A model generated the notes under the pieces. That model was given only the letters and a program-made list of their open reading frames with translations, was not told the DNA's origin and searched no databases. From Phoronis australis (taxonomy: Eukaryota > Animalia > Phoronida), in the NCBI GenBank assembly GCA_002633005.1, contig NMRA01000538.1, positions 124,001 through 188,000 of the forward strand: a stretch of DNA of 64,000 nucleotides. The letters run 5' to 3'. Each line of letters starts with the position of its first letter. The stretch's first letter is position 1. This document shows positions 517 to 40,000 of this stretch, in pieces. Made by a program: the position numbers and the translations under genes.

Positions 517-927
517 CTAGAAGCAAGAGTATGCTCTCATTGCAACCTTCAGCATTTCATAATTAGCAAACAGAACAAACAACACATTTGCCAGGTTAAA
601 AGTATTACCTGTTTAGGAATCACAAATGTATGAATTCAATAAAATATCAAGCACTATACAACATTACAGTCATACAAACGCCTGGGGAAGAATTTTTCTG
701 AGTAGGCTAAAAACCTCAAATGCTCAAGGAATTACAGATTCATAGACTTTTATCAGTTTTAAATAATTGCTCAGTGACTGGTACGTTAGTAGATACCAAT
801 TCCAGTTCCATACACAGTAAAATTTGAAGTCAGTTTCTAGTTCTTACAATTTCCAAATAATATTTGCTAACTTTTGAGTTAACTAGTGTCAGCAAATGAA
901 ACTCATTGGTTGAAGTGCAAATGATAC

Positions 928-1153
928 CTTCATCCAAATAGGTCAATCGCTGCAGATGCGTAGGTATTCCAGCTGCAAATTCGATATGGTCTTTCAGTTT
1001 TCTAATTGTCATATCTTGAGTGATGTTTTTCAAGGTGTATTTCTCCTTAGTGTCCAACAGTTTCACATATATCTTGAAATGATTAGCATTCTTCCCCATG
1101 GTAGCCATGCGGCTAAATGTCCGACTGTTGCTTGTCACAGGCAATATATCCAT
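928..1153 (-). CDS. ANKRD60: ANKRD60-like gene, first coding exon (ubiquitin-like domain, N-terminal part)
   Basis: ATG at 1153 follows an in-frame TGA at 1166-1168. Translation FKIYVKLLDTKEKYTLKNITQDMTIRKLKDHIEFAAGIPTHLQRLTYLDEG resembles, from memory, the ANKRD60 Ubl region ([30 protein letters not shown]). Phase-1 GT donor at 927; acceptor atttcag ending at 1220. Confidence 0.8.
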
Positions 1154-15545: not shown

Positions 15546-16081
15546 CTACACAAAACTTTCTTCATTGTGCCCTTGTGGTGACACACTGGGCTCTCTGTGG
15601 ACCTCAACACTGCACAGAATCTTGTTATCCATTGGAATATCGTTTCTGTCCATGTTAACACCATCCCAGGTACAGTGTAGTGGACTGAAGTGCTCTACCT
15701 TGTTTCTTTTACTGAAATCAATCACCGACTTTGAGCGCTGGGTCTGTGGTTTACCCGGACTGCGTAAAATATCGGCAATGTCCGTATCCATGGGACAGAT
15801 AACATTCCTTTTCGTAAATGGACTACTGCAGATGGCGGAGTTCAGTGACGATTTTGACTGCCGACCTGTTCTTCCCGAGCTAGGCTTATCGCTATTCAGT
15901 GATGCTTTTGATTTGTTTTCACAGCTTCGACTTTCTACTGAATTTTGCTCATTAGGAGGTGGAGTTACGTGGGATGCCGCCGGCGACTGCACACGCTTAG
16001 GGGTTGAACAGGATGACATGATGCGATCTATCTCCTCCTGGCATTCTTTGTCATTCATCTCATCAATATCCTGCATTTTGC
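15546..16081 (-). CDS. CNGB1: CNGB terminal exon (Ser/Pro-rich tail)
   Basis: ctgtcag|(G)[23 protein letters not shown]...GHNEESFV*; phase-1 acceptor; minus-strand AATAAA at 15248-15253. Confidence 0.7.
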
Positions 16082-19000
16082 CTGACAGTAGAAATATCAA
16101 GGAAGTATAAGTTATTGCCTAGCAGAGAATATTGGCTCGTTGAAAAATGAATGTGTACTGATGTTTCATGAGACACTTTCTGCTTGTGGAAGTACACAGA
16201 TAAACCAATTTGTAGAAATAGTAACTTAAACACATGATTATAAAAAGAGCCATATGATACAAGATTAAGCAATGCTTTAATTACGCCCCTAATGTACAAT
16301 AACATAAATTTATCTTTAAACGCAGCGTGTCACCACTCATGTATTACCCATCAGAGCAGCTTACTAGCATTCATCACATTTCTCAAGTATCGAACACTGT
16401 GTTTTGTATCAACAGAGTTTGAAAATAGACTTCACAGCTCATAAAATCTTAAAAAGTAGCTGTCGACACAACATTTGTATGTATCCCATTGAGTTGAAGG
16501 ATCGATTACTGTTGGTTTAATTACTGAATTTTGGGATAGCTAATATTGCTTATTTCTTAAATCTAAAATAAAATAATAAATTTTTCAATGACCCAAACCA
16601 AAGAATTTTTACCGTTCTTCCACTAACTTAATTTAAAAGATGGTGCTGTTCCTTTATTACAAAGTAGTTAAATTAGTAACCAACCATCATCATCATTGTT
16701 GGGGTCAGTAGGAACATCCATCTCCGTCTGTTCAACTATCAGTACTTCATCCTCATCATCAGAAAGGCTTTCCAGGTTCTTAAATGAAAGTCGACAAATA
16801 TGTATTTTTAATGATGAATGTTATTAAATGAATACTGAATTTCGCTGCAACCACCCGAGAACACTATCAAAATCAACTGTCATTTGCAAAGGCATTTATT
16901 TTCCCAAATATTCCTTTTACAATACGAATATGAGTGTTATGAAATAACAACCATGAAAATAACAATAACAATTATAACAATACTAATAATAATAAAACTA
17001 ACAACAGAAATAATTATAGTAATAACAAAAATTACGGTAATTTTCCACTTATTTCGCACAAAACGTTTTGCCAAAATTGTCATTTTCCATTTCAAGGGCT
17101 GCTTTAACTTTGCTACAATAGTGTAAACTTTATAATTGTGACGCTATCGTCATCAAAGTAATCGTGATTGCAGTGACCCTTGCTGGTGACTTCAATGAGA
17201 CCAAAGTTGACTGTTATTTTGACCTCATCAAAGCGTTGACGCTCCACCATTAAATCCACATTTTAACTTCGAAGATAACTGGCGATGTTAACTTCGATCC
17301 TAGACCAAAATTAACTGCATACTGACTGCAACTCTCTAGAACATCGACACGACAACATAATTTAGTGTGAAAGGGTCTACAGCGACACAGTAAACCTACC
17401 TCAGAATAGGTAGGCAACCCATCATCACCACTCTCCATTTCAGTTTGTTTAGACAGTGAACTGTTCTTGGCTTTTAGCCTGTTGTTGCTCTTTCCTTTGA
17501 TCCATGTTGAGGATTTGCCCTTTGACCTCAGCCACTTCATCACCTTGGACTCTGGATCTATCACCTACAACAACAACAATGTTCAAAGATAGAGAAAGAA
17601 TAATTACGCAGTGTTCTTATTTCATTTGAGTCCCAAAATTTATGTGGCGCTTTTTTTAATCGCCTATCTTTCCGGAGATTGATGTCATTTTGTTCATCAT
17701 AGTTTATTATGTTTCATTCTCTTACTTTGTAAAAATATAAATGACCTACAGTATATTTCACTAAAAATGGTCTCTTTTTTGTCTCTGGAAACTGCTTGTA
17801 GTGACACAGATTTATTTATGGTCAGGATATATGCCAATCATAAACAATGCAAAACGTGCCGACAACTGCACCAGACAAAATGTATCTAGGGGTGTTAATC
17901 AGTATCATAAAATTTGGCGACCATATGGCACAGAATACGTCAAACCTGGAAAATTGGACGGCTTCATCACCTCTGTAATAGAAAACTATTTGTCACATTT
18001 CATGAAAATCCATCAAGGAACTAAAAACGCAGAGACAAATGTAAAAACTTGCATTCCACAAGGAGGCAGATAGGGAATTAATTGTGGGAATATAATTTCA
18101 CAAAAGTCCTGTATCAGGCTCAGAGGAGATAGCCACTCTAGATGCAAAAATGTCACTTCAGCACTTAGACCTATCCGTCAATCATACAATTGCCAAATTT
18201 CACGAAAAACTGTCATGAAACTCTGATGATTAAAAAGCAAATGCAAAATCTAAAATTGCCACTAGAGGGTACAGCGGTAGTCGAATCCATCGAAAAATTG
18301 TGGTCAGCTGTTGTCACATTAATAGGAAACACTTGTGGCGATTTCACAAAAAAGCTGCAAAAAATTAAGGAGATAGAGTGGCGCAGGCAAAATTGCCACT
18401 GGGAGGTGCCACAGCCATCAAAACTATCCAAAAATCAACGTGAGCCACAGTTTTATCAGAATCAACATGTGTGCCCATTTTCATAACAATGTTCTTGAAT
18501 GTCAAGCAGATGAAGAGGCGAATGTCAAAAAAACGAACTTGAAAATAAAACGTGGACATTAGGCTGTGCAAAATACTTCAAACCTGTCTGAAAATGAATA
18601 GAAACCTGTTTGACGAACTTCATGAAAATCGATTGATGAACTCCGAATATAACAAGGCAAACACTAGGGGGGGGCACAGCGGTATTGCAATCAATGCGAA
18701 ACTCGTTACCATGTCGTCAGCTCTATAGGAGCACATCTGTCAAATTTCACAATGCTCCTTCAAAGACTTTGTTACAGAGACTTGGCCACAAATCAATATC
18801 AATTGTGGTTTCCTCATCACCAACAAATGTGCAACTTTCATAATGATCTTTTGTTTGGTTTGGCAGCGAAAACAGCTCATAAAAAACAAAATGGCTACAA
18901 GGCGATGTAAAATACGTTAAAACCATATGAGAATGGAATGTCATCGTCTTCTTTTTAATAAAACTTTATTAAGGAACTCCGAAAGCATTTGCGGCTTGGC

Positions 19001-22000
19001 TACTCAAAACCCTTAGAGGGTAATAAAGCAATTATCCTATCAGCCAGGACCATAAACTCTTTGTTAAACTGTGTTTACTTACACAGACCAACTGGGCAGT
19101 TGTAGGACTAAAAGCAGCCGAGGATCCACAAAGAACTACTTTCACTGATTTTGCATGTCAATTTCAAAAAGCTCGGTTATTGTGTGCTCATTTTGTAATT
19201 TGTTGATTGATGGCACTATATAATACAAAGAGTGCTGATGATGTTCTTGTCAATAAATTGCATATTAGACTGACTGACTGTGCTCCCAACATTAGTTTTC
19301 TAAATTGAAGAAGCCTTCAATCACTGAACATTCTGGAAAAAAATCACAACAAAGTTATTCAAGTAGAACAAAATTTCACCAGTTTTGAATAAAACGACTA
19401 CCAAAATTGACCTTTTTCATTTTTCAGGGCTTCCAACATTTGTGTGAATGCCAACAATCTTTCAAAATATTTATCCGACAGTTGCCACTTAATAGTCCTA
19501 ATTTTCATGCAACATGTATTTCTAGAGAGAAGAGATAAAATAAAATTTTACATGTCTGCTATGTCCTAAATTGGCAAGACTTTACAATAACAGAACTTTT
19601 GTTGATCTTCCTAAAAAGACATCTGTATTACGGTAAACTAGACCTTAAGTAAACCAGACTTCCAGCACAATGTGTGTAAACTTGCAGTAAAACTTCATCA
19701 ATTACATGCTATAAGATTTACTTAATAGAACAGTGCATACAATGTCAATGGTCTGCCATGTTGTCTTCTCAGTACAGAATTTTGACAGCAAACGTTTAAT
19801 TTACAATTAGAAACTGTAAAGAATTTCAGTTCTATGTTGTCTTCTAAAAGAAGAATAATTACCTTCTCAGGCATATCATCCTCTTAAGGAAGAAGGATCA
19901 ATTACAAACTGTTTAATTCAAACCATTAGAATTTCACTTGTTTACCATTTTGTCTTCTAAAAGAAGAAGTACTACAGGATACTCAACAATTTATCTACAC
20001 AATTCTGATGAGGAAAGTGACACACCTTAACGACAGTCTTGAGTAGTTTAGGCGTTGACGATGACACAGAAGTGTGATTAATGACTTCCTCCGACACCAT
20101 CTCCTGCTTGTCTTGTTTCATTGTCTTGGCATTAATTGCCAGCAACTTTCTACAATAAGCGAGGTAACAACAGTTGGGAAATCACAATACAAAGATATTA
20201 GTAGTTACACTTTTAGGAAACTTTTAAACTATAAATGTATATATTTTCTGAAAATTGTACTTTTGCGCATTGTAAAATCACAGTTAAAGTTGATAATATT
20301 AAGCAAACATGCTATAAATGGTTCATTGAACACTCAAAGAATGCAAGTTGACAGTATTACAATAAGCACGCTGCCAAAATTGTCAAGAATCGATCACTTT
20401 TAATGTCACATGAAGTAATATCATGCCACTATTCAGTTAGACATATTTCATTTAAAAAATGCCAGACTTTGAAAATTTTACACAGTCAATGATATTACTT
20501 CACTCATTTCATTTTAACAGTTCATATAAAATTTGATTAAAAATTGCGAAAACTTTGATATCATCCATTTCACGTACTTAGCACGTTTCTTCAACAAAGC
20601 CTGAGCATCTGGGTAGTCTCTCATGGCTCGTTCAAAATCACTCTTACATAACTTGAACACATTTGAGAAGCCTTTTGATTGGACGGTGGCTGTTCTACGG
20701 TTGCCACCAGCTAAAGCTAACAGACTGAAATACAATACATTATGAACATGCCAGGTTAGTTTCTACAGACAAAACCAATCGTATACACTAGACACAGATC
20801 AAACTGGAACTGGGTTTGCATGGGAGACCCTGACTAGCACCTCATTGTCCTCATCAAACACTATATATGTTGACCTAGCTATGTTCCCATTTATTATAAC
20901 TCCCATGCTGGGTTCACAAAAATACATTTAGTATTTACAGTCATGAAATCCATTCCTTTTTCTCAAGATGGTGAGCGTAGCAAGACTCCAACTTGAATTA
21001 GACAAATCCAAATTAATGGCTTGATTTTCCAATCTCCGCACAGAAACAAAGAAGAAAAAAATCAACTGGATTTCCATACATTCTGTACAACCCAAAGTTG
21101 ATGAGAGTGACACAATATTAGTATTCAAGGTGTCAGGGGCCCATCCTCAGCCCATTCCATTTCGCATCTGAGTATATAATGTTCACATCAGTTGAGATGA
21201 CTGGCTTGCTGTCCATGCACTTGTTATTCAGTAATTACCTGTTTATGCTTATGTGGTACCTTACCCACAAGTCTGCGGATCAAGCCAAATGTCTGAGAAA
21301 CTGCAGAGTTGAAGTCGGTCTATAGCTCATGCAATTAGACTTTTGACTTAACCAATATGCTATTAATTTTATAATGTGACCATGTCTTTTTAGTAGTTTA
21401 CCAAAATGAAGGTACATTGATAGCAAAACAATTGTCAGTATAAATAACACAGCCAACATTATATTTGATGTACGGTAAATGTTCAGGATGAAATCTTAAA
21501 AATTCTGTTACAGTCATCTAAATCATCGTTGATTTCATTTTTGTTTTCTGCAACTCAAATTTTGATTTTTCATGAAAATCATGTCCTATTTTTAATTGCC
21601 CCTCATGCAAACTGTAGCATTTTAAAAATAATTCCAAACAGGTTCATGGAGAACAGTATAATAAGCACTTGAAAAGTTGAAATGAATATAATCAGCCATT
21701 TCTGAGCTATGATTTTCCAAAGTTAGCCAAATTTGAATATTTTTCCAGTGTCATACATAACTTTAATAACATTTTGTTCAGCAAAGTTCAAGCTGAAGTA
21801 AAATCTCATTGCCTTATAAATGACAATTGGAATTTTTGCATTGCATGGATTTGTCATTTACCCCAACTTCTAGAGCTTTTAATGTACAGGCGAGGTCCAG
21901 ATGACCGGTCCACTATTATGCACAACGCTATGCTAGAGTGGTACAGGCGAGGTCCAGATGACCGGGCCACTATTATGCACAACGCTATGCTAGAGCAGTG

Positions 22001-25000
22001 CAAGCAGTGTCAATAAATGTAATAAACAACTCTGCTTTTTGAAAAATTACACAATTTCAAGATTCAATGATTCCAATATGTAACATAGAAAAGGAAACAA
22101 AATTGGTATTCGAGTCATGTTGGACTTCTGCAATAAGCAACATAAAAATATGGAAATGAGTTGTCTAGACTTGGCTGGATAATCAGTCTATCCTGAAAGC
22201 GGGTATCAAAAATTACATTGATTAATGCATGTCATGGTTCACATTTTCCACTGATTGATTCCAAAATAATCCTATACCAATTCCAAGTCATTTATGCCAT
22301 TGCTACAACATCCCATACAATATATTTATAAATTACAAAACTAAATAAGGGCATGCATTCGGAACAACTGAAAGCCGGTGAAAAATAAAAATACAGTTTT
22401 GGCAGGTATTTTTTGCAAGAATTGATGACATTTTATCATACAAAGTTAAATGTTTCCTGAAGCTCAACAGAGATCTTCCTTGTCAAGAACGTTTATAGTA
22501 GGAACAGCAAACCAGTCAATGAAAACACAAGACAATTAAAATAATAGAGGAAATTAAAACCATTAAATGAAACAATGACATAACATGATAAAAAATCTCC
22601 AGTTTGGGCCAGTCTCTAAAATTTGTAACAATGACATTCAAGGTGAAATTGAATTTTCGTGATTCTGAAGATGGGACACGGTCGGTTTTGACATTCATCG
22701 TATTTATCAAATTTCTGACATTGCAGTTTTGTATCAAGTGAACAGAGCTGGAAAATAGATTTGGCAGTTCATAAAATTGTCATAAATATCTGCCACTACG
22801 CAACATTTTCATGAGTTTGTAAGTTTGAGTGGAATGATTATTTGTCATTGATTGTAATTCCATTTTTAAAATTTGACACGTGACCTTGAGCAATATAAAT
22901 TAATTTTTTATTGTCCCAAGCTGGAGAATTTTTACCATAAATCTGCTAATCAAGCTGTCACTTGCATAAGGTTTAAATTTAAGTTATTATATTCTCATTA
23001 GGCAACTCGTATGCTAACACTATTTCACTAACAATATTGCATTAACACTATTGCACTAACACTATTTACACACAAGTGGATGAGAATGCGTGCGTCCTCA
23101 CCCCAGTATCTGGCGAATGTCTCGGCACATCAAAAACTTCATGGCGCCATCACACATCAAAGTGAACTAACTTACTATTATTCATGGGCTTGGCCCAATG
23201 TTTTGGATGAGATAATAGCGAACTAATGCGCCTGTATAGCGTCTTAGTTTCAAAGTCAAAAAATGAACAATGAGTAAGGCAAACAACCAAAACAAACTGT
23301 TTTCAAAATTGAAAAGTGGATATTAGCTGTCATCGAATTTTTAAAATCGATGCATTATCAAAGAAATTTCTTCAGCAGCACGACTGAGCCATGAGCATTA
23401 GTTAACTTTGAAAGGGCAGGTTAGTCACAATCTGCCTTAGGCAAGCTTATAGGATTGGAGTGACAAAAAGTCAAATGTTAGTGTACAAATTGCCTCATGT
23501 TAATTCTTTAACTCAAGTCACAAATTTTACCTAAAACTTCATGGTTATAACTTCATTAGAACATTATACAGGTATTTTGATATCAAAGTTCTTTGGTAAA
23601 ATCAAGTTCATATCAGATTTTGATCCATGGATATATATAACATTATACATAACATGCCCATTTTTAAAAAAGAATTATTCTGCAGTCATGAAAATTTTTG
23701 TGACCTTTGCCTACAGCAACATAAGATAATCACTTGCCAGAGACGGCCGGAGTAGTCACATACCTCCTGTGTTCAGTGAAAGCCTGGAAACTCCTCACTC
23801 ATTGATAGAGACCTGGCGGACCAGGATGAAACATCTGCGACCAATCTACACCATCTCTAAGTAAGTGATTATCTTATACCGCAATACCTCTGGAGACCAA
23901 TGACCAACCTATTCTCCAGAATTTGCCTACAGGTATGCCATATTTAGAACATGGATATTCTAAACTAAAATCTAAACAAGATGAATCTGAAACCAAAACC
24001 TGCCTAGCAGTAAATCAAATTTATGGCAACTAGTACTTAACCATGCTGATTAACAAAATTTAACATTTGCGCTAACTGAAGCTAGTGCCTAACACCCTAC
24101 TGTGCTTTGGCCTTCAACAACTTTTCAGCGATTGGGTAATCCTGCATGGCTCTCTTAAAGTCGCTTTGAATGAGCACAAAAAGGTTTGAAAATCCTTTTG
24201 ACCTGACTGTAGCTGTACGTCGGTTACAGCCCGCCACGGCCAGTAAACTGAAAACAAGCATTGGGTTCACACGTTAGGCAGAAGTGGAGGCCTACTAAGT
24301 GTAAAGTGTGCCAGAACTTGTTAAAAATTATAATCCCAACATTACAATGATAACAATTAAAAGTATATCAGTTACGATTACTATTACCTTATTGCAATTA
24401 TTTTCTACTTAGGCGATATTTTTTCGGCTTAATAAACAACTTCATTCTTATGAATATGACAATCTTAAATGCCACGTGGAAGAAATACGTTGCAAACATT
24501 TTAAGGCAACCGATTTAAAACTGTTTGCAACTTCATTCTTTTTATTCTAATATCAATCGAAGTTGGCCATTTTCGACTCGCTGATGAAGCTTGACCGTTC
24601 AATGTAGCTTTTATGCTGTTTTTTCCTAATCTTCTTCACCGAAAGCTATGTACATAACTGTGAAAAATGTTGAAAATCCCTGCCTACAAATTAATTTGTC
24701 ATTCGGGGTATTGTCTGAGAATGTTTCATCGAATATGAGTTGAAAATAATGTTAAATACTGTTTAGAACACTGTGGTTGGAAATGTTCTAGAACAAGGAC
24801 CATATTATAACAATATCCTTTCCCTTCAGCCTAAATTTTACACCCATCACTGATCAAAACTGGCCACGGTGATATATTTTAAAGCATAATAAGTTATTAT
24901 CAAGCATGAATTCTTATTTTTAGTTTCATGCCAGCTTATGGCACCAAATGGTAAAATGTGAGCTGTTATCTTTTTTGAGCTGAGATGTGTGGTAAACACC

Positions 25001-28000
25001 CACTGTAAACAATATATCACATGGTGTCCAAAGTCACCAGAACCTGACCTTTGACCTAGATAAAAAGATCAGGGCAGCTGTGGTGTCTGGGCATTGAATA
25101 CACGAAGCCTGAGGATGAAATAAACTTTATAGAGTAATACAGGTGAGTCAATGAGAGTACACCAAGGTTCCTATTAATAAGAACTTCATTTTGTGAACAC
25201 AAGAGCAGTAGCTCAGTCTCCTGACATGGCAGTTCTAAGTTGGCATGATCAAGTCCTTGATCTGTATCATGAGACCATTAATTGTACTCAAAACAAGGAA
25301 GTGACATTCAGTTTTCAGTTAAGATTGCATCTATTGATATTGTTGCTTATCCTACTAAGACAATTCAATTACAAGGCTATTTATTAAATGACAATAACAA
25401 ACATCCAGATTAGTGAACTGTCTTGATATCTACTAATAAAGTAGTAGAAATGAAACAGAAAGCTGTATGTTCAAGTGGCATGAAAGATAGGTAATAGGAT
25501 GGTTGGGCTTGCCAACCAGGTGAATGTATGCATGAAATTACGTACATACAATGTCTGGTAAGATTGTGGTCAACATATGCGACCCAGTGAACTTTGAGTT
25601 TCTCATTCTATGACATAATTATAACACTTTAAAATATGAGATTTCGTCAAAGCAGTGTGCTTGACAAGATGCAAATTAATTAGCTCACATAAAAATCATC
25701 CATGTAAATGAACACAAAGGAAGACAATTAAGAAACAAAGAATTTAAGCCCACATCCTTCTTGCTCACAGGTATAAACTGGAAATCTATGCTATGCCAAT
25801 TTAAAGCTAGCCAAACTGGATTTAACCATTTCCTTGCCAAGGTTACAGTTTCAACATTTAGTAAATTGTACTTCGAGATAATAGTAACCTGCACAAAGGA
25901 ACTCAAATTTACTTTGGTGTTGCAAGTAAGCAAGGGTCCTTCCCACAGAAATGCCTGTATTCATTTACAGCACAAGACAAAAGTAACCAGACATCGGCAG
26001 CAAAAATTACTGGTATTTTTACTACTAGGTTGGCAAAATACTAATTGCAGAATGGCTTAATAACCCCCTTGCTAATTTTCATCTTTGGTCATGACAGATA
26101 GGCTACTCTGTTGATGGGCTATTCTGATGACAGGAATTTCGCTTCACTGAATACTTTTGGCTTAATTGTACTGTAAATCGTACGGGTCCCTAATTATCAC
26201 ATGAAGGTTTCGTGCTATGAATTGCTATTTAATTATAGTAATACCCGATGATATCAAGCAATCACGTTATAGAAGGGCTCTAGCCAGTCCTATATGATTA
26301 GCTAAGTGTTTTATGGAACCTTAAATACTCCGGATTTCTTTGAGGAAAACACACGGAAAGGAAATTTTGGAAAGACTGTGGGAAGTTGCCAAGTAGTTAT
26401 TTCTGTACCCAGTCAAACAGAAGTACTCAAGATAATTAACGCTGAGTACTGAATAAAATAAGATGAACGAAAATTTTAACGATAACGTAGGAAGCAGGAA
26501 AAGGGGGTGCAGGTGGAGGTAAAAGGCGTGTTAACTGGAAAGGAAGGGAGTAAAACTGCATGGTATCAATCTGGTGAAGACAAAACTGCAGTCAACTGGG
26601 AGCCACTAACATTCGTCTGACATCCCACTTAAAACAAAACTTCTTGTGCTTGAGTGTAATAAAAAATACTGTTTCAACCACCGTTCTTTCTCAAATGGTG
26701 CAACCTGTAAATACTTAATTACAGACGGATTACATATCTAGGTGCAACAGACTGCAGGATGAGGTTAAATGAACGTACATTAAAGACGACTGTAGTCCGC
26801 TTCATCATTTGAAGAAAAAAAGTGTTCAAATTGTTGAGTTTTAACTACAACTTTAAATCCCATCTCTGACTTCTTATATTCTATAAAATAATTTTACGTA
26901 GTTTACCTTCAGAAATCTTTCTTCATTTCTAAGATCATGCTAAATGCAATAACAAATAACTGTTAATTTTGGGATGTCTGTTTCAACACTCATTCCGTGG
27001 TACTGTACTTCTACTTTTCTATAAGTCCAGGATATAACTCGCAATAACAAATTCTGAGGCAATTATGAAATATTTTAAGGAAGGTAGTTATTTATAATTA
27101 GCATTGTTATTTTTCAAGAGATGTCCGCAAGCGAACACGACAGCCCCTTCTTGTCCTGCCAGATATGTTTTGAAGTTTACGACAGCGAATGTCACCAGCC
27201 TAAGCTCCTCCCATGTCACCATGGTTACTGCAAACAATGTATTGCTGAACTTGTGAGTCATCATAAACACTTTCAGTGCCCGACATGCCGCCGAAAAATT
27301 GAACTTCCACGTGGTGGTGTGGATGATTTGCAAACAAACTTCTATGTAGAGGATATTGGTAAAATCTTAGACAGTGTTTCTCCGGAAACCTGTAAGACTC
27401 ACCCAGGACAGGCTTTGGTTAGTTTCTGTGCATCCTGCCAGGTGGCACTCTGTTATGAGTGCACTCGAACGGAACACAAAGAAAGTAAACAACACGTTCA
27501 TAGAAGCATAAATGACGTGCGTGTGGACCTCGAGCAAAAAATCCGCGAGAAACTTGTGACCATCTCAGAGGAAGCTAAAAACACCCATCAGGGCTTAACG
27601 CACTTGGCCAAATGCAAAGAGCAATTGCTGCATGACAAACTACGAGCTGAACAAGAAATTGACCTCAGATATCGTGAAGCTGCGAAGGAGATCTTGGCAG
27701 CCATCAAAGCAAGATGGCTGGCAGTTAAAAAAGAAAATGAAGAATTGTATCAGTCGAAAATCATTGAACTGACTACCCAAATTAAAAACTGTGAAGAAAA
27801 ACTGCTATCTTTGGAAAACATCACCGAGGCATTCAATTCAGCAGTAAGAGACAGAAAACACAGCTCTGTGCTAAATATAGCCTCCAAACATGGAGCGCTG
27901 TATTCAGTGGACAATCTTTTGAAGAAAGAAACTTTCAGCAAGACAGTGCCAAAATTGAGATTCAATGAAGGTATATGGCTATATGCAGCTAAACAATTGT

Positions 28001-31000
28001 TACGTAGTGCTGGTCAAATGCTGAAAGAGAACCAATTAGGCGTTGTGGTACCTCCTGAGAAAATGGACATAACAACGCATCCTAAACCTGGTCTGGTTTG
28101 CTCCGTGAATTTTCATCTCTCAAAAAAAGCCGATGTCAGCATCTTTATTGAGGACTCGGTTGACGATCCAATAGATTATTCACTCGATCAACAAGGCAAA
28201 TTTTTTGGAGTTCAGTTCATACCACAAATGGCTGGTGCACATCATATGGTGATCAAACATGGCGGATCAGTTATCCAAGGTGGGGACATTACAATTAATG
28301 TGGAAAGTAACGATCCTTTATTAATTGTAAACAGTACCCTCAACGTAGCTGCATCCTTTCACAGGCCTCGATGTGTAGCTTTAGATGGTCAGATGAATGT
28401 ATATGTGGCAGACATGGGAAACAACTGTGTTAAAAAAGTCAACATTAATGCTGGCTACTCCTCAATTAACTTCTGCAATACACCTAGTTTTGATATTGCT
28501 ATCGATTGTTTAGCTAATGAACTTTTGTGTACCAAAGTGAGAACAGACCAGAGTCAAACAGGATGGAGTAATGCAGTTGAAATTTACAGTCTTGACGGAA
28601 CTCTTCAAAGCATTATTGAGAACCAGCTAGCCAGCCGTTCATTATGGGTAGCTGTCAACAGTCAACATCACATTCTTACCTCCGACAGCAATGAACATGT
28701 GATATTTGTTCATAATAGACAGGGCAAATTGTTGAAGACCATTGGTAGACAAGGTTCAAAGGTCGGTAAGTTCTCAGGGCCAGCGGGAATATGCATTGGA
28801 CCCAATGACGATATAATTATCGCAGACAGGGGAAATAAGCGAGTTCAGATACTGGATTCCGAAGGACAGTTCAAAACACAAATAGGATGTGCAGGGACAG
28901 GTAAAGGGGAATTCCTATGTCCTATCAGTGTTGCTGTAGACAGACAAAATATGATTATAGTCAGTGACTGGAAATGTAATAAGATACAGATATTCAAATA
29001 TGACGGCACATTTGTAGCATGCATCGACAGTTCAGGAGACATACTCAACGGCCCAACGGGCATGGCACTGACCAATGATGGTGAAGTGTTTGTGGCTGAC
29101 TGCAAGAACCACTGTGTGAAGAAATACAGATATCAGGATTCACCTGGCAAGTCGCTGATACCTGACCAATGTTGTGTAAGTTAGAAGCAGGTGTCTACTA
29201 ATAAAATCAATGTTAGAGGAAGTAATCATCATGTGAGCTCTGTGATATTACAAAGTGATTACTGCAATACTCAGTGAGTCAGAAACAATATCAAGCTGAA
29301 ACTACAATGTCATTACAAACTGATGAATGTGTGAGTAATTAATCAGGTAAGTGCTCAGTGATAATAGTGATTGATGCAAGGTATTCTAGAAACAAGTGAC
29401 TGCTCTGTGATAGCGCCAACTGACTCAGTTGCACACTTGCATATGAATGTATTAAAAAGTTCTATAGACCACAGATTACATTACTACCCAGTTGCTGAAT
29501 GATTCACAATCACGTGACTTCTGTTTCAATTGCCTGGTGCCAACATATGACAATACGAAAATTTATGACAGTTTAAACTGGAAATTTTGTGAACATATAA
29601 AACCTGTTTTAAACAACGCCAACTTAAGTGAGAGGGTGAGCAACTCAGACCTCATTACCAGAGTACAAATTGATCAAATTTCTACTGTTACACTATCCAA
29701 CCATGCAATTCTTCAGTTCACTTGCAGTACCTGACTTCATTCTTGTCTCCATGTCACATAATAGGAGATCAAGTGACAAATTTTCAGCGCATTTTAGAAT
29801 TTCACAATAATTCATACCTTAATTAGAATTAACTTCAACATTTTGTAACATCAACTTATGGAACTGAGGAGCGTGCAAGAAGTGGTTTATAAACTCATGA
29901 ATAGCAACCAATTGTCCTGTAATGTCCAAACTGCTACACTAAGCATAGATCCTGAAACACATTAATGCATGAAAAGACAATTACTGAGAAAGCATCTTCC
30001 ATAAAAAATAAGTTGCAATTTTCCTTGCATGGTTTCACACTTAGACACTGCAATTCAGATGGGATTTTACCAAGCATATAATTACCTTGAAATTTTACAG
30101 TAAAATGAATTGAACGTGGAAGAGAGGAAGTATAAGAAACTATGATGCAACACCGCAGAATGGAAAAGTAAACAACCTGATTTGTAATGTCGCAAGAAGG
30201 GTACATATCGTCTTCAAAGCCCATTTATTGAATGACGCTACCTCTGCACAGTTGACCCTTTATCCAAACCTGTACAACCCTTGCAAAGCAGCAGTAGCTA
30301 CAGCTCACCTGATCTCACCAAACACACTACCCTTGCCAAGTGTTGCCAGCACCTGGCCCGTTGGTGCCACTACCTCCACCAGTCCGTGCACCACAATGTA
30401 CATCTCAGTGCCAACTTCACCCTGGCCAAAATTGAAGCACAAGTCAAGAAAGGAATGCTATGACACGCCCACATCTTGAGTAGAGCTGCCAACAGAAAAT
30501 ATTTTTGAAACATTGTGGGCACTCTAAACAAAGTTAGAAACCCTTGAAAAATGAAAAAAGTGCAGTCTTGGCGATTATTTTTGTCTGAAGTTGGTGAAAC
30601 TTTACCATACCAACAAACTGTCAGTTCTGCCCAAGCTCAAAATTCAAGTCTGATCTCAGCAAGGAGCATCTCCGAGACCAATTTAATTTAACAATGAAAA
30701 GTTGTCTAAATCAGAAGTTTGGTTTCTATTGGAAGGCGATTTGAATCACCCACAATACCAAAATTTATAGCTGAGAAAAAAGTCCCCGTTGAACAATTTC
30801 TCGGCAAGACCTTTACACCGTCGATAGGTCACTGAGTCACACCAATGGGCTTTCTATTATTGCACTAAACCACATAACGCTTAATCTTCGTGAGAGACCG
30901 TCCGGAGTTGGTATATGGTGCAACTCGGGACGGTCTGGGGTCTACAGAAAACCACAGTTCAACTGTGAGTCTACACTAATGTGATAAACGAGAGTAAGTT

Positions 31001-34000
31001 CTACTTGCTGCGTCAGCTGCTAGTATGCTTATCTCTTTTATGACACACAATGTGTGACTGGGCAAAGCGTTTTCAAAATAATGTGGATAAATCAGTGGAG
31101 TGTGAGACCCCTGAGGTCCCTGTCAAGTCTTCACGGCAATTTTACGTTATGAAAATCAAATTAATGTAGACGGTCGGAGATTTCTGACGCTAAACAGGTA
31201 AATTTTAAAACAGATTTCTATATATGGAAGTTGCGAAATTTCACCGGCATTTCAGACAAAAATAATTGCCAAAAATACCTTCCTTTATTTTTCAAGGGCT
31301 TATAACATTCATGAATTGCCCTCAAATTTTCAAAACCTGGTTGCTGAGGTACAAAATCTGAACATGGAAAAGCATTTAATTTCATGAACTGCAGATTTTT
31401 CATCAAAATATCACTAGTCGGCCATATTGTTTCCTCCCTTGGTGAAAATTTACCGTAGCCTATTCTCATGTCAGTTCTGCCTACCTTGGTGATAATGTTG
31501 TCTCCAGGGAGATACAGCACAGGGCGGAGTTTAGACACAAGATCAAAGAGAAGGTTCTTATCACAATCCTGGAACAACTGCACTTGACTAAGAGTGTCAA
31601 AGTGAACACTTATAGCAATATCAGTGACCAGCTTCTGCGGTAACACCTGCAGCAATGAGTTCTCATCTGCAAGGAAAAGAGTGTGTATCACAAAACCAAC
31701 ACCGCAATGATTAGACTACTCTTACGCTAACAGGATTTTCAAGCAAGTGGGCGAGAAAACATGCACTGTTCACCTCAGAGTATCTAGCGAATTCCTCGAC
31801 ACATCAAAGGCTTAATGGCACCATCACAGATTGAAGTGAGCTAGTCAGTATTAATGAGCTTAGCCAAATGTGTATTGAAAGAGGTAATTGCCATGGTAAC
31901 CAATGTGCCTGCTTAGCTATTAGTTTCAGAGTTATGACAACAAGCAGGCCACTTATCTAGCAGGCTTATTACAGACCACCTGTGAACACAGTCAAACTCA
32001 GAGTGAATTGGTGTATTCGGAAAGAATAGATTGTCGTAACTTCGGTTGCAGTTGGACAGTTTTGGTGATTCTAAAACTAAACATGATCAACATTTGACGA
32101 AAATTTCAGAAATGCTATTGGTTTATATTCAAATATGTTATAACTTAACTTTTATTTTTAACAGCACAGCCCAGTCAGGTTAGATTCTATCTTATTGGAG
32201 GTTAGAGCAATCACTGAACAAAAGAGAGCTGGTCCTCCAGCCCAAAAATGCCAGTATGGAGTTAATCAGTCATGTAAGATATTGGCTACTGGGGTAAACT
32301 TCCCAACTCGTTGTTGGGCTATAGAATCGAACAAGTTGGGAGCAACGGGAAAACGCCGTAATGAACTATAACACTCACTGAACGGCCCAGTCTTTTAATG
32401 TTGGATCAACATTTGAAACAATGTGCTTACTAAAAAAATACAATTTCACAACAACATCTCGGAGTTTAGATACTGATCACTCAACAAAGTATCAACGCAT
32501 AGATAATTGTTGAGACAAATATGAACTGAGATCTGATCTCCGAGTTTAGCTGGTGAAATAGTAGTTAGTTTGTTCCCATCTGGATGCTACTGCATGAAGA
32601 TAACCGCTGTTCACAAGACAAACTGATCTACCTTCTGATTTGTATTTTCTGTCTTAGGGGAAGAAAGGCACAATTTTCATATTTCTATCATTGCTCTTCA
32701 TATGTGGAGGTAGAAAAACACCTTACTTAATCTAGTTTTTAAAATGTAGGGTCGCTAACACACTTCTGAATCCAGTCAAACAAATGTGAAAAACGCTTCA
32801 TAGAGCCTCTCTGAAGCTGTTAAATTCTTTATGCCTGTATTACATGTCACTGGGAACCAACTAAATATTATTTACATCAGAATGACAAATAGCAAATTAA
32901 TTTCAATCTCAAATAGTGATTAGCTTGGCGTCAATGTGCAGCCATGGGGTAAATATAGCAGTGTTGCCGGAAGAGACTGTTGAGACAACATAGACCTACC
33001 AAGAGTTTTCTGTGTACTCCATGTGTAGTTGAACCAAGTCCTGACCTTGTTCTGCAGCTCTTTGGGTACATTTAGATTCTGCATGTGGTGAAGAGTGGCA
33101 TCCATGTTCTTACGAAAAGACACGCGGTTAGCGCTCGCCGCAGTGTAGATATCTCTTATCTGAAAAAGTTGTGACAAAAAATTGACTCGTGTTTGAGAAA
33201 TATGACTATTGCACCAAATGAAATAGCATAGCTGGNGCTAGTCAGTATTAATGAGCTTAGCCAAATGTGTATTGAAAGAGGTAATTGCCATGGTAACCAA
33301 TGTACCTGCTTAGCTACTAGTTTCAGAGTTATGACATTAGCAGGCCACTTATCTAGCAGGCTTATTACAGACCACCTGTGAACACAGTCAAACTCAGAGT
33401 GAATTAGTGTATTCGGAAAGAATAGATTGTCGTAACTTCGGTTGCAGTTGGGCGGTTTTGGCGATTCTAAAACTAAACATGATCAACATTTGACGAAAAT
33501 TTCAGAAATGCTATTGGTTTATATTCAAATATGTTATAACTTAACTTTTATTTTTAACAGCACAGCCCAGTCAGGTTAGATTCTATCTTATTGGAGGTTA
33601 GAGCAATTACTGAACAAAAGAGAGCTGGTCCTCCAGCCCAAAAATGCCAGTATGGAGTTAATCAGCCATGTAAGATATTGGCTACTGGGGTAAACTTCCC
33701 AACTCGTTGTTGGGCTAAAGAATCGAACAAGTTGGGAGCAACGGGAAAACGCCGTAATGAACTATAACACTCACTGAACGGCCCAGTCTTTTAATGTTGG
33801 ATCAACATTTGAAACAATGTGCTTACTGAAAAAATAACATTACATAACAACATCTCGGAGTTTAGATACTGATCACTCAACAAAGTATCAATGCATGGAT
33901 AATTGTTGAGACAAATATGAACTGAGATCTGATCTCCGAGTTTAGCTGGTGAAATAGTAGTTAGTTTGTTCCCATCTGGATGCTACTGCATGAAGATAAC

Positions 34001-37000
34001 CGCTGTTCACAAGACAAACTGCTCTACCTTCTGATTTGTATTTTCTGTCTAAGGGGAAGAAAGGCACAATTTTCATATTTCTATCATTGCTCTTCATATG
34101 TGGAGGTAGAAAAACACCTTACTTAATCTAGTTTTTAAAATGTAGGGTCGCTAACACACTTCTGAATCCAGTCAAACAAATGCGAAAAACGCTTCATAGA
34201 GCCTCTCTGAAGCTGTTAAATTCTTTATGCCTGTATTACATGTCACTGGGAACCAACTAAATATTATTTACATCAGAATGACAAATAGCAAATTAATTTC
34301 AATCTCAAATAGTGATTAGCTTGGCGTCACTGTGCAGCCATGGGGTAAATATAGCAGTGTTGCCGGAAGAGACTGTTGAGACAACATAGACCTACCAAGA
34401 GTTTTCTGTGTACTCCATGTGTAGTTGAACCAAGTCCTGACCTTGTTCTGCAGCTCTTTGGGTACATTTAGATTCTGCATGTGGTGAAGAGTGGCATCCA
34501 TGTTCTTACGAAAAGACACGCGGTTAGCGCTCGCCGCAGTGTAGATATCTCTTATCTGAAAAAGTTGTGACAAAAAATTGACTCGTGTTTGAGAAATATG
34601 ACTATTGCACCAAATGAAATAGCATAGCTGGTTTTGATTTTTTTTTTTGAAAATTGATGCTGCTACTGATGAAGCCTTTTTTGTTGTCCATATTTTCAAA
34701 AGGTCTCCTGATTCCAACCAAAATAGGCAGGTGCAAATTTTTTTCCCAGAATCACCTGATTCCAGCAAAAATGGAACAAGATCCTTCTTTTTTTAAGAGT
34801 GAGATACTGTTTTCAAAATAAGTTGGGTGAAGACCAGAAACAATTATGCTATTTGTGGCTTTATTTTGCGACAACTTACTTCACAGAGTGGCCAGTGTCA
34901 AATGTTTTGATTTAAATTCCTGATGACCCAGAAAATGAAGTCATAAAATAAGACGAGTCAAAACTTCTTGTTTTCTACAGCAATTGATAGTGATGATGGA
35001 ATACAGGTCAGACATGACGCAAATTTCACTGCATTCTTTGGGTGTAGGATCACTTTGATAAGCCGGGTGTGCACAAGTCAAGTCACTCCATTGTGTTGCT
35101 CAGGCAAGCAACACAATAGATGTTTGGACATATCAACAAGGGAATAGCACTTTGCAGTGCACGTTATTTCTCTTTTCTTCCATTGTCAAGTTAACCAGTT
35201 TTGCTGATAAAATGAAAGAGTTCAACTTTTAGTGACGGCTTTAGTTTTTCATAGTCCACAGAGTCTAAAATGGACAACAGGAAATGGTGGTTATGACCAA
35301 CACCCATCTGTGTTTCCTATCCCCAAAAGAAGCCATGCAATGTGGAGGTGCTGTAGTAACTGCCTATTGCAATCCCTAATCATGGTAAGAATTAATTCAT
35401 AGTTGCCGGTAATTGGAATTACGATCTAGCACCTATGTAGGCGTTGGCTATTTTTGTTCCACCATAATTTAAACCATAATTGACACTAACCTGGAGTAAT
35501 CATTAGTAAATTCATACGATGAATCATAACGCCTAACAGAAAAAAAAAATTATAATTAAGTAAAAAATAAATTGTTTCACAGACACTGAGCTCAATTTTT
35601 TCACAAACAAAGGGACAAATGAAATAAGATTTCCTGTCTCTTTATAGTTACATTAGAACCATATTACATGAGAGCTGGAAACCTTACCTGACCAATAAGC
35701 AAAGCGAATACAAACACCCCAGACAGCCAATAGAGTGTCATGAACATCCATTCCAGCTCATTGGTTGGTTTGGGATTGTTGCCAATGGAGGTCGCTGTTT
35801 TGGTAGCCAGATAAAAGCACCGGATGTACCTGTGATAGAAAATGTGATTGCCTTGAAGTTGAATAAAACATTAAAATGAAAATATATTTCCTGTTACCCT
35901 GAAGTTAGTAAGATACAAGTACACAGCTCTGGCAAATCATAATCCAAGGGACTCTGCTGGCAAATTTGTATTCAGAATTGAAATGGTGTGTTCAGGAAGT
36001 TTTCCAAAACAATTTAATGGGAATGAATAGAAATTTAGTTCAATTTAAGCTTTATTTCTGCACGTTACTTGGTAAAGTGTCGTAGATGGTTTATTTTTAA
36101 AAAGGTAGTGCTAATCTTACAAGCAACTGTCATCATGGCACACCATTTGTTCTTACACGGATGGAAATGGAATTTGCAACCTAATTGCATTTCTTTTACT
36201 ATAACATATTTGAAATTATACCATTGGCCAATCGCAAAGATACATTCCAGATATACGTAACTATGTGCAGCCCAGGCATCACCTCAAAGAACGTCCGTTC
36301 TGTTCTTTAATTAAGTACCTCTGGGTTACTACAGCTGTGGCAACCAAAAGCTTCAATTCCTAATTTTTTCTATTGAAAGCAAAATTGACAACTGCATTTT
36401 TATCCGAAAAATCAAATCCATGTGACTCTGGTCCACTCACGCGTTGCCTTTTCCATTGTACACCCATCTAGTGCTGTTGATTCCTTCATAGACAGAGACA
36501 CTATAGTACCCACACGTCTCCAAGTGAATAAGGTATATCATGTACGTCACAGTTCTCATCACACTAGTGGAGGAAAATAACACCATCACTTTAATTTGGC
36601 AGCAGAAACGTGTCTTAAATCGAATTCACACAAGCATAAATTTGAATGTTGAGCGTTCTAGCTAAAACCTATTAGCGTTTCATACATTCTTGGAATTCAT
36701 AAATATTGCTAATTAAAAACATTTTAGTAGGGTTGACGGCAGTTGTGTGCATTTGCACGTTATGATTAAAAAATGGGCATGTATACACAAGCGCTCTTTG
36801 TTGCATAAAATGAAAAATGAAAATATATTAAACTGTAACAGCAGTCTTGAAAATTTCATGACATTTAGTCATGTTGTGGACACCGCTGTTTTGCAATGAA
36901 TGTACCTTTCTTTTTCACTAAATTTTACTAAAAAAGACATGGTCACGTTACCCAATTAATGTCAGATTGGTTTAAAGTCAAACCAGAAATTCTACAAGCT

Positions 37001-40000
37001 TTCTACTTTCAGAAAAAAATTCACCGAGGTTAAAAGCTTCCATACTTTTGTACAAATTTGGCAGACTTGTCGATAAGGTCCTACATAACATGAACTTGGG
37101 TACACACAAATTATGTTTTTCAAAGGTTTGCTACATTTTTGCAAATGTTCAAAATGGTACCAAATGTTGTTTGATGAGGACTGTACTGCTCAAACTGTGG
37201 CAACCAAGTAAAATTTTGTTAAAAGGAAATTTCACAGAATAAAGTCCAAATTGTCACATTTTGTCCTCAACTGAAAATTTTTTAACCATTATATTTCACC
37301 AGTAGTGTGATGCGTACAGTTAGCTTTAACAAAGCTGGTAAACTTTCCTGTTATCTAGTAGCAAGGAAATAAGCCATTGAAAAATAGAATTTGCATAAAA
37401 CAAAATGTTGTTTTAGTCAACTATAAGAACAATTAATGTTATGCAGGACCTGATGGTTCAATAACAACTGGCCAAATTTCATTTGATATGAGCATTGAAG
37501 ATGACATCTCAAAACAGTTGGTACAGTTTTCAAAAATTATTTCATTCTTGTTTAGTGCAACTGTTGAGTTTTTTTGTCTGAAGAATCATACAAGTTTATA
37601 TTTTTTGATAGCTTCTCACGTAAAAGGAACATTGAGCAACAATTCCAAACAAGTTGGAGAACATTTCAGTAAAGCATAGTGTATGAAAGATTCATAAGAA
37701 TCGCATCAGTTTTTTGGATACGGTTTTTAGGTCCTAAAACCAGTGAATTTGACGCATTCCCACCAAAATAGTGAATTAATGACCCGTTCCGACCAAGTTA
37801 AATATGTATGGTACTAGCACAGTATTGACATATACTGTGAAATTGACTTCAATGTTCCCATTAGACGCGGTAGTTAGCAGACATCTGACAGAGTAATCGC
37901 AAGGTGAAGTAATCACCACTGTCACAACAGTCAAACTGTCAACTGAGCATTGTCACTGTTGCAAATCGTTGACCATTGTTAAATCCACCTGTTTACCAAG
38001 ACCCCGAATTTAAGAGTTCACACTGACTGACGTTCCCCTAAACACTGGAGGAAGCATTGATGTTTGTGGTAAAGGCCTCCAGATGGAACCCTCATGAGAC
38101 AGGAAGAGGGTGGGCTAGATGAACAATGAAACTTAAATGATATCAACACATATTTCAAAGCCCATGCTGAATGATGGGCCATCAGTTCAGCTGAAACGGT
38201 CACCATAACAGAATATTGCCATATTATGTATATTGGACCAAGCAAAGTATTTATTACATATTGCTTTTGTGAATAAACTCATGTTGAATAACTACTTTAT
38301 GATCATTCAGTGACAATCCCAATGAACGTGAATCTGTCAGTCAGCCTATAAGAGAAATGAGACAGTCCCACGCAGATATTGCGTGCAACAAGCTTATTTG
38401 TTTTCCAAATTCATACCATTCGAAAGATATACCAGTCAATCTGGCAAACAAAAGCAAAAACTATAAACACTCACCGCACAATATGTCCATTCTTTGCCAC
38501 ATGGTCACAGCGATCGTAGAACTCCCAGAAGGTCTTGAGCTTAAGAAACCTTGGTAATCGTAAGAGTGGATTGACTCCAACGAGAAAGTAGAAGAAATCG
38601 AAAGGGAGAAGGGACAGGATGTCAAGCTGGAATGGAATAATCGAAATCACCAATGACACAATAATTGTTGTATTCCAACTGATGAAGTCATCGATCACGT
38701 GACCTACCACATAAGGCCAGTAAACGCAATGGAGGGCTAACCACTCCCTTACGAAAACGAAAGTGAGAATCTCACTGGATTCCAGTTAGATTCTCACTAA
38801 ATCACCAATTATACTTAGAAATGCCAGTAAGAAACCAGTGGGAATTGAAAAACAGGGGCAGTCAGTGAGAATGAGTGAGAAATGGTATTTCACTCGTTAA
38901 ATATATTTATGTGAGCATAATGAACCCAGCTTACTCCTTTTCCCCCTCATCTTGGTCCATTCCATTATTCCTTTGTGTAGGACTACACGTCGTTTTTCCA
39001 ACCTTCGCATTGGTCTGCTGTTATCACGTGCCTCGAGTTTGGTCAGCTCTTGGCTCTTATAGACTAGGCTGGTGATTGTCACGTGTCTTTAGGGGCATTT
39101 TTCTTTGTAATTGTAACCTCGCTTTCAGTTCACTTTGTTCCGGCCACATTGTTGTACGTCAAAAACTCATTCAATTTTGGTAACGAGCTTGCAAAGCACG
39201 TATCATTTATCTATTATTCGGGACATATGTCGATCATAAAATGTTATGTAACAGTGAGAATCCAGTGAGAATTTCAGACTTAGAAAAAATCTGAGTGAGA
39301 ATCAGTGAGAATTTCAGACTTAGAAAAAATGTGAGTAAGACTTGCGTGAGAATTTAAGATAAACAAACACCCTGATAGGCTGTAACTGTGGAAATTTCAG
39401 TTGAACCAGATTTCTGAATTCAAACTAAAATGGCGCCACTGGAATGAGCAGTTGGAGAAATAGCTTGAAGATTAATGATGATTTTCTCACAAGTATTGTG
39501 AAATTACTGAACAGTTTGTCTGCAAGTCAACCAGATGGGACCCTGGACTGATTTTGTGTGTTAATAAGCTTAATGTTAGTACATTTCATACATCTAGTAC
39601 TATAGTGCATGAAGCACGAGTATTAGACTGATGTCTTCATTCTGTTTTGACAGCTGAGTTTTCAGCATTTTGCTGATTCACCAAAGGCATAGTTGTTAGT
39701 TTATACACAGTTTGCAATTAAATTGTATCCTTAGTCAAATTTCAAGATAAACTCACAAAAATAAGCAGTGTTTTGGTTACCAAAAAACTTTGATCTCTCA
39801 TCTATTCAGTCAGTGTGTGCATAAAAGGCACACACAAAATTTTCTAAGTTCACAATTCTCACCCAGTGAGATTTTCACTCAGTGAGAATTTCAATAACAC
39901 AAATTCTCACTAATTTGCATAACATTCCTACTGAGTGAGAATTTCAGTAAGACAAATTCTCACTGAGTGGGAATGCTATGCAAATTACTTAGATTCTCAC

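What the first reader, a model, noticed from the sequence alone, without database searches (positions are those of the whole stretch)
20578..24247. Two diverged, interchangeable ligand-binding exons in the CNG channel beta subunit (candidate mutually exclusive splicing)
Seen: exons 24247-24101 and 20724-20578 are both 147 nt, phase 2-2, stop-free, with canonical AG/GT sites, and encode the same CNBD segment. They read [49 protein letters not shown] vs [49 protein letters not shown] (35/49 identical by hand count). Many synonymous codons differ, the flanking introns show no evident similarity and there is no N junction, so this is an old retained duplication unlike the artefactual ones. Established: this segment forms the phosphate-binding cassette (RRTA), beta-8, B-helix and start of the C-helix. 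Both keep the Arg-Thr, and the C-helix Asn selectivity position lies in the shared next exon. Inference: one gene makes two beta subunits differing in ligand affinity or gating efficacy (e.g. GGN vs GCN in the cassette). I do not know of such a CNBD exon switch in CNGB/TAX-2 genes but cannot verify novelty.
Basis: partly seen in the sequence, partly recalled or inferred. Interest (0 to 1): 0.85.

Follow-up and report, generated by a model that had tools for sequence, protein, structure and literature searches.

The report
CNG channel with swappable gating exon
An invertebrate gene for the beta subunit of a cyclic-nucleotide-gated sensory channel carries two old, intact tandem versions of one exon of its nucleotide-binding domain, which are likely spliced in one at a time and predicted to tune how readily the channel opens; exon swaps of this kind are well known in other ion channels, and use of the first version is still unshown.

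Summary
Exons A (24247-24101) and B (20724-20578) are 147 nt, AG/GT, open, 34/48 identical in whole codons and 89/147 in DNA, within one complete CNGB-type gene of a likely spiralian animal. Synonymous sites are saturated (pS 0.95, pN 0.22), and a model with A neutral since the duplication fits far worse (2dlnL 30.6). Both exons keep a CTAAC branch point although their introns no longer align. So this is an old duplication kept by selection, not an assembly artefact. Exclusive splicing is not shown: RNA depth was 1-3x, one read is inferred to join B to the next exon, and none lay on A. A, B, A+B and skipping are all in frame. A evolves faster and has the gene's weakest donor, so recent decay is not excluded. 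The ligand-contacting RTA is unchanged; 10 of 15 differences lie in the beta8/B-helix hinge and the B and C helices, pointing to gating efficacy rather than cAMP/cGMP choice. GCN is a natural state in cockroach, termite and spider CNGB. No relative examined shows a diverged second copy and no paper was found. Verdict: a new member of a known class.

The parts
24101..24247 (-). Exon A: upstream copy of the CNBD exon (PBC loop, beta7, beta8, B-helix, first half of C-helix); faster-evolving; weak donor ACA|GTAGGG
   Evidence: no RNA read
20578..20724 (-). Exon B: downstream copy, closer to orthologues (39/48 to Owenia against 34/48 for A); donor TAA|GTACGT
   Evidence: one read inferred to join it to 20149
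24273..24277 (-). CTAAC branch-point match, branch A about 27 nt before the exon A acceptor
   Evidence: 26 of 1188 YAG sites have one
20755..20759 (-). CTAAC branch-point match, branch A about 32 nt before the exon B acceptor
20747..20751 (-). GCATG (RBFOX core motif) between the branch point and acceptor of exon B; candidate silencer, untested
24042..24046 (-). GCATG 55 nt downstream of the exon A donor; candidate enhancer, untested
30309..30421 (-). Shared upstream exon (beta-roll up to FGEI, split Ser codon)
20026..20149 (-). Shared downstream exon (distal C-helix with the Asn)
   Evidence: about 2x depth in X2
20725..24100 (-). 3376-nt intervening intron between A and B; too long for steric exclusion; no docking/selector signal found
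15546..50895 (-). Modelled span of the CNGB-type gene from S1 to the stop codon (13 exons per isoform, 731 aa open); further 5' exons lie upstream (weak hit near 56.9 kb) and were not modelled

Best explanation
Exons A and B are an old tandem duplicate of the CNBD exon of one CNGB-type gene, both shaped by purifying selection, and they are likely spliced in one at a time (B as the usual form, A as a minor or cell-type-specific form), giving two beta subunits predicted to differ in how ligand binding is coupled to opening rather than in which nucleotide they bind. Shown: two intact homologous exons in the same slot, saturated synonymous sites with low protein change, kept splice signals, and each alone giving an open 731-aa model. 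Inferred from one read: B is spliced to the next exon. Inferred only: inclusion of A; exclusivity; the functional difference. The enforcement is not frame-based decay, steric hindrance or U2/U12 mismatch (all excluded by the anatomy), so the likeliest control is by splicing factors; an RBFOX-type switch through GCAUG sites is the leading candidate (about 0.25 on its own).
For: pS 0.95 against pN 0.22, bootstrap pN/pS 0.13-0.37. Codon model: omega=1 rejected (2dlnL 49.6) and 'A neutral since duplication' fits worse than the free model by 30.6. Neutral simulations at 0.2 substitutions per site or more left an open, AG/GT-flanked exon scoring as well as A in 0 of 4000 runs per distance. A keeps 12 of 13 near-invariant columns, as does B. 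Both acceptors have CTAAC at branch distance, against 26 of 1188 YAG sites in the gene, and none of the other 12 modelled exons has CTAAC within 60 nt. X2 depth: about 62 bases on exon B, about 15 bases on 20135-20149, none in between. Differences map to PBC loop (2), beta7 (1), beta8 (3), B-helix (3) and C-helix (6) on a Lingula model; the B and C helices move on cGMP binding (PMC10761061). A beta-subunit CNBD change can shift heteromer sensitivity: CNGB3 L595F, which is position 1 of this exon, moved K1/2 from 15 to 5.7 uM (PMC4460308). GCATG occurs 5 times in the four 300-nt flanks against 1.09 expected (p 0.002-0.005, top of 1024 pentamers).
Against: No read on exon A in 4 of 4 runs or in the finer lay of 2 runs; one informative read cannot tell. 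No joint was listed by the tool. A has a long branch (0.47 against 0.22 for B), scores at the low end of orthologues (6 of 154 below it, 28 below B), and has Ile26, Gln27 and Lys31, seen in 0 of 154 gap-free segments; Gln27 does occur in scallop segments and Leu26 in two bivalve segments that the length filter dropped. A's donor matches U1 consensus at 4 of 9 places, the lowest of 13 donors. A short recent neutral phase (0.05-0.1 per site) survives in 42%-5% of simulations. No second copy in 24 of 24 related loci and no diverged second copy in 330 matched proteins. None of the five GCATG is the preferred TGCATG (read), two lie downstream of B where they would favour B, the motif was noticed before it was tested, and it does not survive correction for 1024 pentamers.
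Confidence: 0.63

Rival explanations
1. Exon A was once a used alternative but has recently lost its function and is now a decaying pseudo-exon; only B is used.
For: Zero reads on A; weakest donor of the gene; long branch; loss of Lys27, invariant in 154 of 154 gap-free segments; short neutral phases are not excluded.
Against: No stop, no indel, AG/GT and CTAAC intact; several A residues have precedent in working orthologues (Cys7 in 12, Val4 in 42, Ala46 in 15, Glu41 in 5 of 154); B also has residues rare or unseen in orthologues (Lys24 in 0 of 154); coverage is too low for absence to count.
Confidence: 0.2
2. Exon A is an alternative last exon: its weak donor is read through to Gln-stop and the transcript ends in the A-B intron, giving a beta subunit cut in the C-helix that would act as a ligand-insensitive or damping subunit.
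For: Read-through of A's donor gives Gln then TAG at once; five AATAAA/ATTAAA sites lie in the intron; donor is weak.
Against: Any phase-2 donor beginning GTAG or GTAA gives this stop by itself; such hexamers are common in AT-rich DNA; no unique read depth directly after A; the product would lose the distal C-helix and tail.
Confidence: 0.07
3. A and B are independent cassette exons, so A+B and neither forms are also made.
For: Both forms keep the frame (780 and 682 aa); in C. elegans 8 of 41 putative clusters proved to be tandem cassettes, mostly 3n long (PMC4165533).
Against: A+B would repeat beta7 to C-helix inside the domain and skipping would remove the RTA motif; the 3n homologous pairs in that table (e.g. 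akt-1, unc-32 7a/7b, mrp-1) were exclusive.
Confidence: 0.07
4. The pair is an assembly artefact (two haplotypes) or belongs to a second, interleaved CNG gene.
For: The window has two artefact-like exon duplicates at N junctions.
Against: 61% DNA identity, unalignable flanks and no N; no other exon has a diverged copy.
Confidence: 0.02

Closest known systems
Homologous mutually exclusive exons from tandem exon duplication in ion-channel genes (CACNA1C/D, cacophony, SCN exon 5, KCNMA1/slo, GLRA2/GluClalpha; PMC9741552, PMC8373072, PMC7954323)
   Same: Equal-length homologous exons in one slot, core residues kept, variable residues near a functional site; ion channels are enriched for such events and gained them repeatedly.
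   Different: Here the swap is in a cyclic-nucleotide-binding domain of a CNG beta subunit; 'cng' has 0 occurrences in the text of PMC9741552 and in the held supplements of both catalogues. Exclusive use is verified there, not here.
Vertebrate CNGB1/CNGB3 (PDB 7rh9, 9upf, 8etp) and protostome CNGB
   Same: Gap-free alignment over all 48 residues, same GEISLL...NRRTA motif; the same 147-nt exon with AG/GT ends in 24 of 24 related loci.
   Different: Relatives examined have one copy; annotated isoform clusters of Lineus, Haliotis, Patella, Periplaneta, Zootermopsis, Cryptotermes, Macrobrachium and Argiope all carry one version of this segment. Vertebrate CNGB splicing is N-terminal (recalled).
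C. elegans homologous ME pairs under RBFOX/CELF/STAR control (egl-15, unc-32, let-2, slo-1; PMC4165533)
   Same: Weak splice sites, long flanking introns, GCAUG-type motifs nearby.
   Different: Those carry UGCAUG and were tested with reporters; here only the GCAUG core is present and nothing is tested.

Membership tests
Homologous mutually exclusive exons | Tandem homologous exons in the same coding slot, same phase and length | tested here: met
Homologous mutually exclusive exons | Both copies under purifying selection since duplication | tested here: met
   a recent loss of constraint on A is not excluded
Homologous mutually exclusive exons | Each exon is included in mRNA | tested here: inconclusive
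   B: one read inferred from depth bins; A: none; gene depth 1-3x
Homologous mutually exclusive exons | Double inclusion and double skipping are rare | tested here: inconclusive
   no joint listed at this depth; both forms are in frame
Homologous mutually exclusive exons | Pair conserved in related species | tested here: inconclusive
   single copy in 24 of 24 loci, but only L001 shows both flanking exons and none is a close relative; no diverged pair in 330 matched proteins
Docking-site/selector RNA pairing | One intronic element pairs competitively with a selector beside each exon | tested here: not met
   three candidate regions; shuffles as good in 7 of 30, 26 of 30 and 10 of 12; long-range sites elsewhere and conservation untested
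Steric, U2/U12 or NMD-enforced exclusion | Very short intervening intron, mixed intron types, or frameshift on double inclusion | tested here: not met
   3376-nt GT-AG intron, 147 = 3n
RBFOX-regulated exon pair | (U)GCAUG sites placed to repress one exon and activate the other, conserved and bound | tested here: inconclusive
   5 GCATG against 1.09 expected, mixed positions, none TGCATG; at most one per 600 nt around the single-copy exon in 24 loci; binding not testable
CNG channel beta subunit (CNGB) | Six-TM channel with CNBD grouping with CNGB proteins | tested here: met
   best PDB hits CNGB1; 69% to Owenia over 426 core residues and placed among spiralian CNGB in a tree that held CNGB-type rows only
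CNG channel beta subunit (CNGB) | Functions only as a heteromer with CNGA | not testable with these tools
   property taken from PMC10761061

The most novel reading that the evidence does not exclude
A spiralian lineage has evolved a neuron-type-specific, RBFOX-driven exon switch that swaps the hinge and C-helix of the CNG beta subunit, so that one gene supplies two sensory channels with different cyclic-nucleotide efficacy, doing by splicing what vertebrates do with the paralogues CNGB1 and CNGB3; exon A, with Ile at the position of CNGB3 Asp633 and a rebuilt beta8/B-helix hinge, would be a natural gating variant under positive selection.
Probability: 0.22. Interest if true: 0.62.

Novelty: new member of a known kind. 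Interest (0 to 1): 0.4.

Why it matters
If both exons are used, this would add CNG channels to the ion-channel families that gained swappable duplicated exons, and it would be a natural two-allele experiment on how the beta subunit's hinge and C-helix set ligand efficacy in a heteromeric channel, testable by patch clamp. The class itself is common, and earlier notes list several other such exon sets in this genome, so a specialist would find it neat, not surprising.

Tried and rejected
No genome is held for the window, so paralogues elsewhere could not be searched. The run search listed no RNA holder; only same-label runs were added. Docking/selector scan: no signal; the shared upstream 10-mer is at chance level and has no exact complement in 20150-30308. 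Exon tree: A+B as sisters neither shown nor rejected (p-AU 0.33), A with the arthropod GCN forms also not rejected (0.31), so the age of the duplication is open; both fall on the spiralian side of a 95/86 branch. P0206, the only protein with two matches, is an identical repeat in an ostracod CNGA-like model; the extra segment in Haliotis rubra P0104 repeats the upstream exon, not this one. A short-protein search with exon A gave 1 candidate, a spider-like segment. Folding P0001 alone failed (pLDDT 36). The Atlas did not hold the nested TRIM protein. The primary paper on CNGB3 D633G was not held and searches for it found no passage. Earlier-findings look-ups by sequence and by words gave nothing.
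Full report
Observation. They share 34 of 48 whole codons at protein level and 89 of 147 bases. The split last codon gives Gln with A and Lys with B, so 15 of 50 codons differ. The flanks do not align and there is no N nearby, unlike two 98-99.7% identical exon duplicates at N junctions elsewhere in the gene.

The gene. tblastn of 8 homologues lays out one CNGB-type gene on the minus strand. With splice sites fixed by eye, models with A or with B each give 731 open residues to the stop; A+B gives 780 and skipping 682, also open. Best solved-structure hits are CNGB1, then CNGA and CNGB3. The core is 69% identical to Owenia over 426 residues and falls with annelid and nemertean rows (support 0.92; 42 rows, Lingula left out as partial), so the animal is likely a spiralian; its exact place is unresolved. 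Of 14 exons searched back against the window, only this one has a diverged copy.

Selection. Nei-Gojobori counts give 32.5 synonymous differences over 34.2 sites and 24.5 non-synonymous over 109.7 (Fisher p 2e-14); 8 of 15 fourfold sites differ. A codon model finds dS unbounded and dN 0.22; omega=1 is rejected (2dlnL 49.6), and a model with B constrained and A neutral since the split is worse than the free model by 30.6 (the models are not nested and two-step Leu/Arg changes inflate dS, so read this as strong, not exact). Neutral simulation without indels kept an open, spliceable exon scoring as well as A in 42% of runs at 0.05, 5% at 0.1, 0.45% at 0.15 and 0 of 4000 at 0.2 substitutions per site. 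So A was constrained for most of its history; a recent release cannot be excluded. Against A: branch 0.47 against 0.22 for B; 6 of 154 orthologous segments score below A and 28 below B; Ile26, Gln27 and Lys31 are absent from those 154. That set kept only unique, gap-free 48-residue segments from 330 matched of 343 proteins; among the dropped 49-residue bivalve rows, four scallop rows have Gln27 and two rows Leu26. With 10 spiralian outgroups, 6 differences polarise to A, 1 to B and 7 are ambiguous.

Splice signals. Both acceptors have CTAAC at branch distance (27 and 32 nt), found before 26 of 1188 YAG sites in the gene and before none of the other 12 modelled exons. A's donor matches the U1 consensus (recalled) at 4 of 9 places, the lowest of 13; B's at 6. 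The intervening intron is 3376 nt and GT-AG, and the exons are 3n, so steric, U2/U12 and decay-based exclusion (as listed in PMC4165533) do not apply. A scan for shared docking sites found nothing beyond shuffles. GCATG occurs at A +55 and at B -184, -27, +152 and +266: 5 against 1.09 expected, p 0.002-0.005, first of 1024 pentamers but not significant after that correction; around the single-copy exon in 24 related loci there is at most one per 600 nt. RBFOX usually activates from downstream and represses from upstream and prefers UGCAUG (PMC11874969); the sites at A +55 and B -27 fit a switch to A, the two downstream of B do not, and none is TGCATG. This is a lead only.

RNA. Three raw-read runs and one contig set of the same species label were laid (about 18-19% of each raw run read). 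The gene's 3' part reaches 1-3x in X1 and X2; the bin holding exon A has depth 0 in 4 of 4. A finer lay of X1 and X2 shows, in X2 only, about 62 bases on exon B, about 15 bases on 20135-20149, and nothing in 20280-20569, on the strand expected for this gene. That fits one read spliced from B to the next exon; the tool listed no joint, as it needs three reads. One against zero says nothing about A.

Relatives. Among 330 matched proteins only P0206 has two matches, an identical repeat. Annotated isoform clusters of eight genera (Lineus, Haliotis, Patella, Periplaneta, Zootermopsis, Cryptotermes, Macrobrachium, Argiope) carry one version each. All 24 metagenome loci have the same 147-nt AG/GT exon once; L001 shows it alone between both flanking exons, the others hold 0.2-7 kb downstream. 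None is a close relative. A and B share Thr13 and Arg32, rare in outgroups, which hints at a lineage-specific origin, but the 48-column tree cannot show it. Cys7 is the sole annotated state in Blattodea, spiders, a scorpion and horseshoe crabs, so GCN is tolerated in presumably working channels.

Function. On an AlphaFold model of Lingula CNGB (pLDDT about 90 over this segment except the PBC loop), exon positions 13-16 are beta7, 20-26 beta8, 27-35 the B-helix and 38 onward the C-helix. Differences: 4 and 7 (PBC loop), 15, 22, 24, 26, 27, 31, 35, 39, 41, 42, 46, 47, 49. Arg10-Thr11-Ala12 are unchanged. Ten of 15 thus sit from the hinge onward, in parts that move on cGMP binding (PMC10761061). 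Position 39 (Asp in B, Ile in A) aligns to CNGB3 Asp633; that D633G raises apparent cGMP affinity is recalled from Bright et al. 2005, whose title alone I saw. CNGB3 L595F, position 1 of this exon, raises cGMP sensitivity and cAMP efficacy of the heteromer (PMC4460308), and the B1b site takes part in cooperative binding (PMC8325370 abstract). Hence the inference: the isoforms would differ in efficacy, with a modest effect as one subunit of four.

Prior knowledge. Tandem-duplicated exon substitution is enriched and convergent in ion channels (PMC9741552) and tends to alter surface residues near functional sites (PMC7954323). No CNG case was found: searches (23, 0, 105 and 0 papers; no listed title or abstract start on this), 0 'cng' hits in the held supplements of PMC9741552 (15,271 characters only, so lists may be missing) and PMC8373072 (positive control), and in the text of PMC4165533 and PMC7954323. 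Subscription papers and bioRxiv supplements were not searchable. What I saw: passages of PMC10761061, PMC9741552, PMC4460308, PMC3692405, PMC7954323 and PMC11874969; passages and section 4 part 1 of PMC4165533; abstract and outline of PMC8325370; listing and supplement hits of PMC8373072; Copley 2004 only as cited in PMC9741552. Earlier AI notes on this genome list several other duplicated-exon sets (14 notes fit, 8 shown), unchecked here.

Verdict. A real, old, selected exon pair; likely mutually exclusive (0.63), with recent decay of A the main rival (0.20). New member of a known kind; interest 0.40.

Noticed in passing
window 27088-29184 (+), with a 5' exon ending at 25142: A RING/B-box/NHL (TRIM-type) gene with a single coding exon is nested antisense in the intron just upstream of exon A (Pfam). 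It is transcribed at 2-5x, and 4 reads in X3 join its 5' exon to the coding exon. Its start likely lies under 1 kb from exon A's acceptor, so head-on transcription could bear on exon choice; untested.
   Followed up: partly
window 31840-33235 / 33237-34631 and 46853-48167 / 48284-49598: Near-identical (98.4%, 99.7%) tandem copies, each with one CNGB exon and split by an N run; likely assembly artefacts.
   Followed up: partly
window 30421-30309 (-): The shared upstream exon is two codons shorter in the beta4-beta5 loop than in the orthologues aligned.
   Followed up: no
window about 21880-21995: A two-copy tandem repeat of about 59 nt inside the A-B intron.
   Followed up: no
window 21005-21294 (-): About 250 bases of sense-strand intronic read depth in X2 upstream of exon B; pre-mRNA or an unannotated piece.
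   Followed up: no
window 830-1165 (-): An exon with a ubiquitin-like domain of a neighbouring gene.
   Followed up: no
window 43374-44413 and 52188-53988: Arrays of a diverged repeat of several hundred bases in two CNGB introns.
   Followed up: no
proteins P0011-P0015, P0029-P0046, P0152: Gly-to-Cys before NRRTA recurs in Blattodea and chelicerate CNGB and in exon A, probably by convergence.
   Followed up: partly
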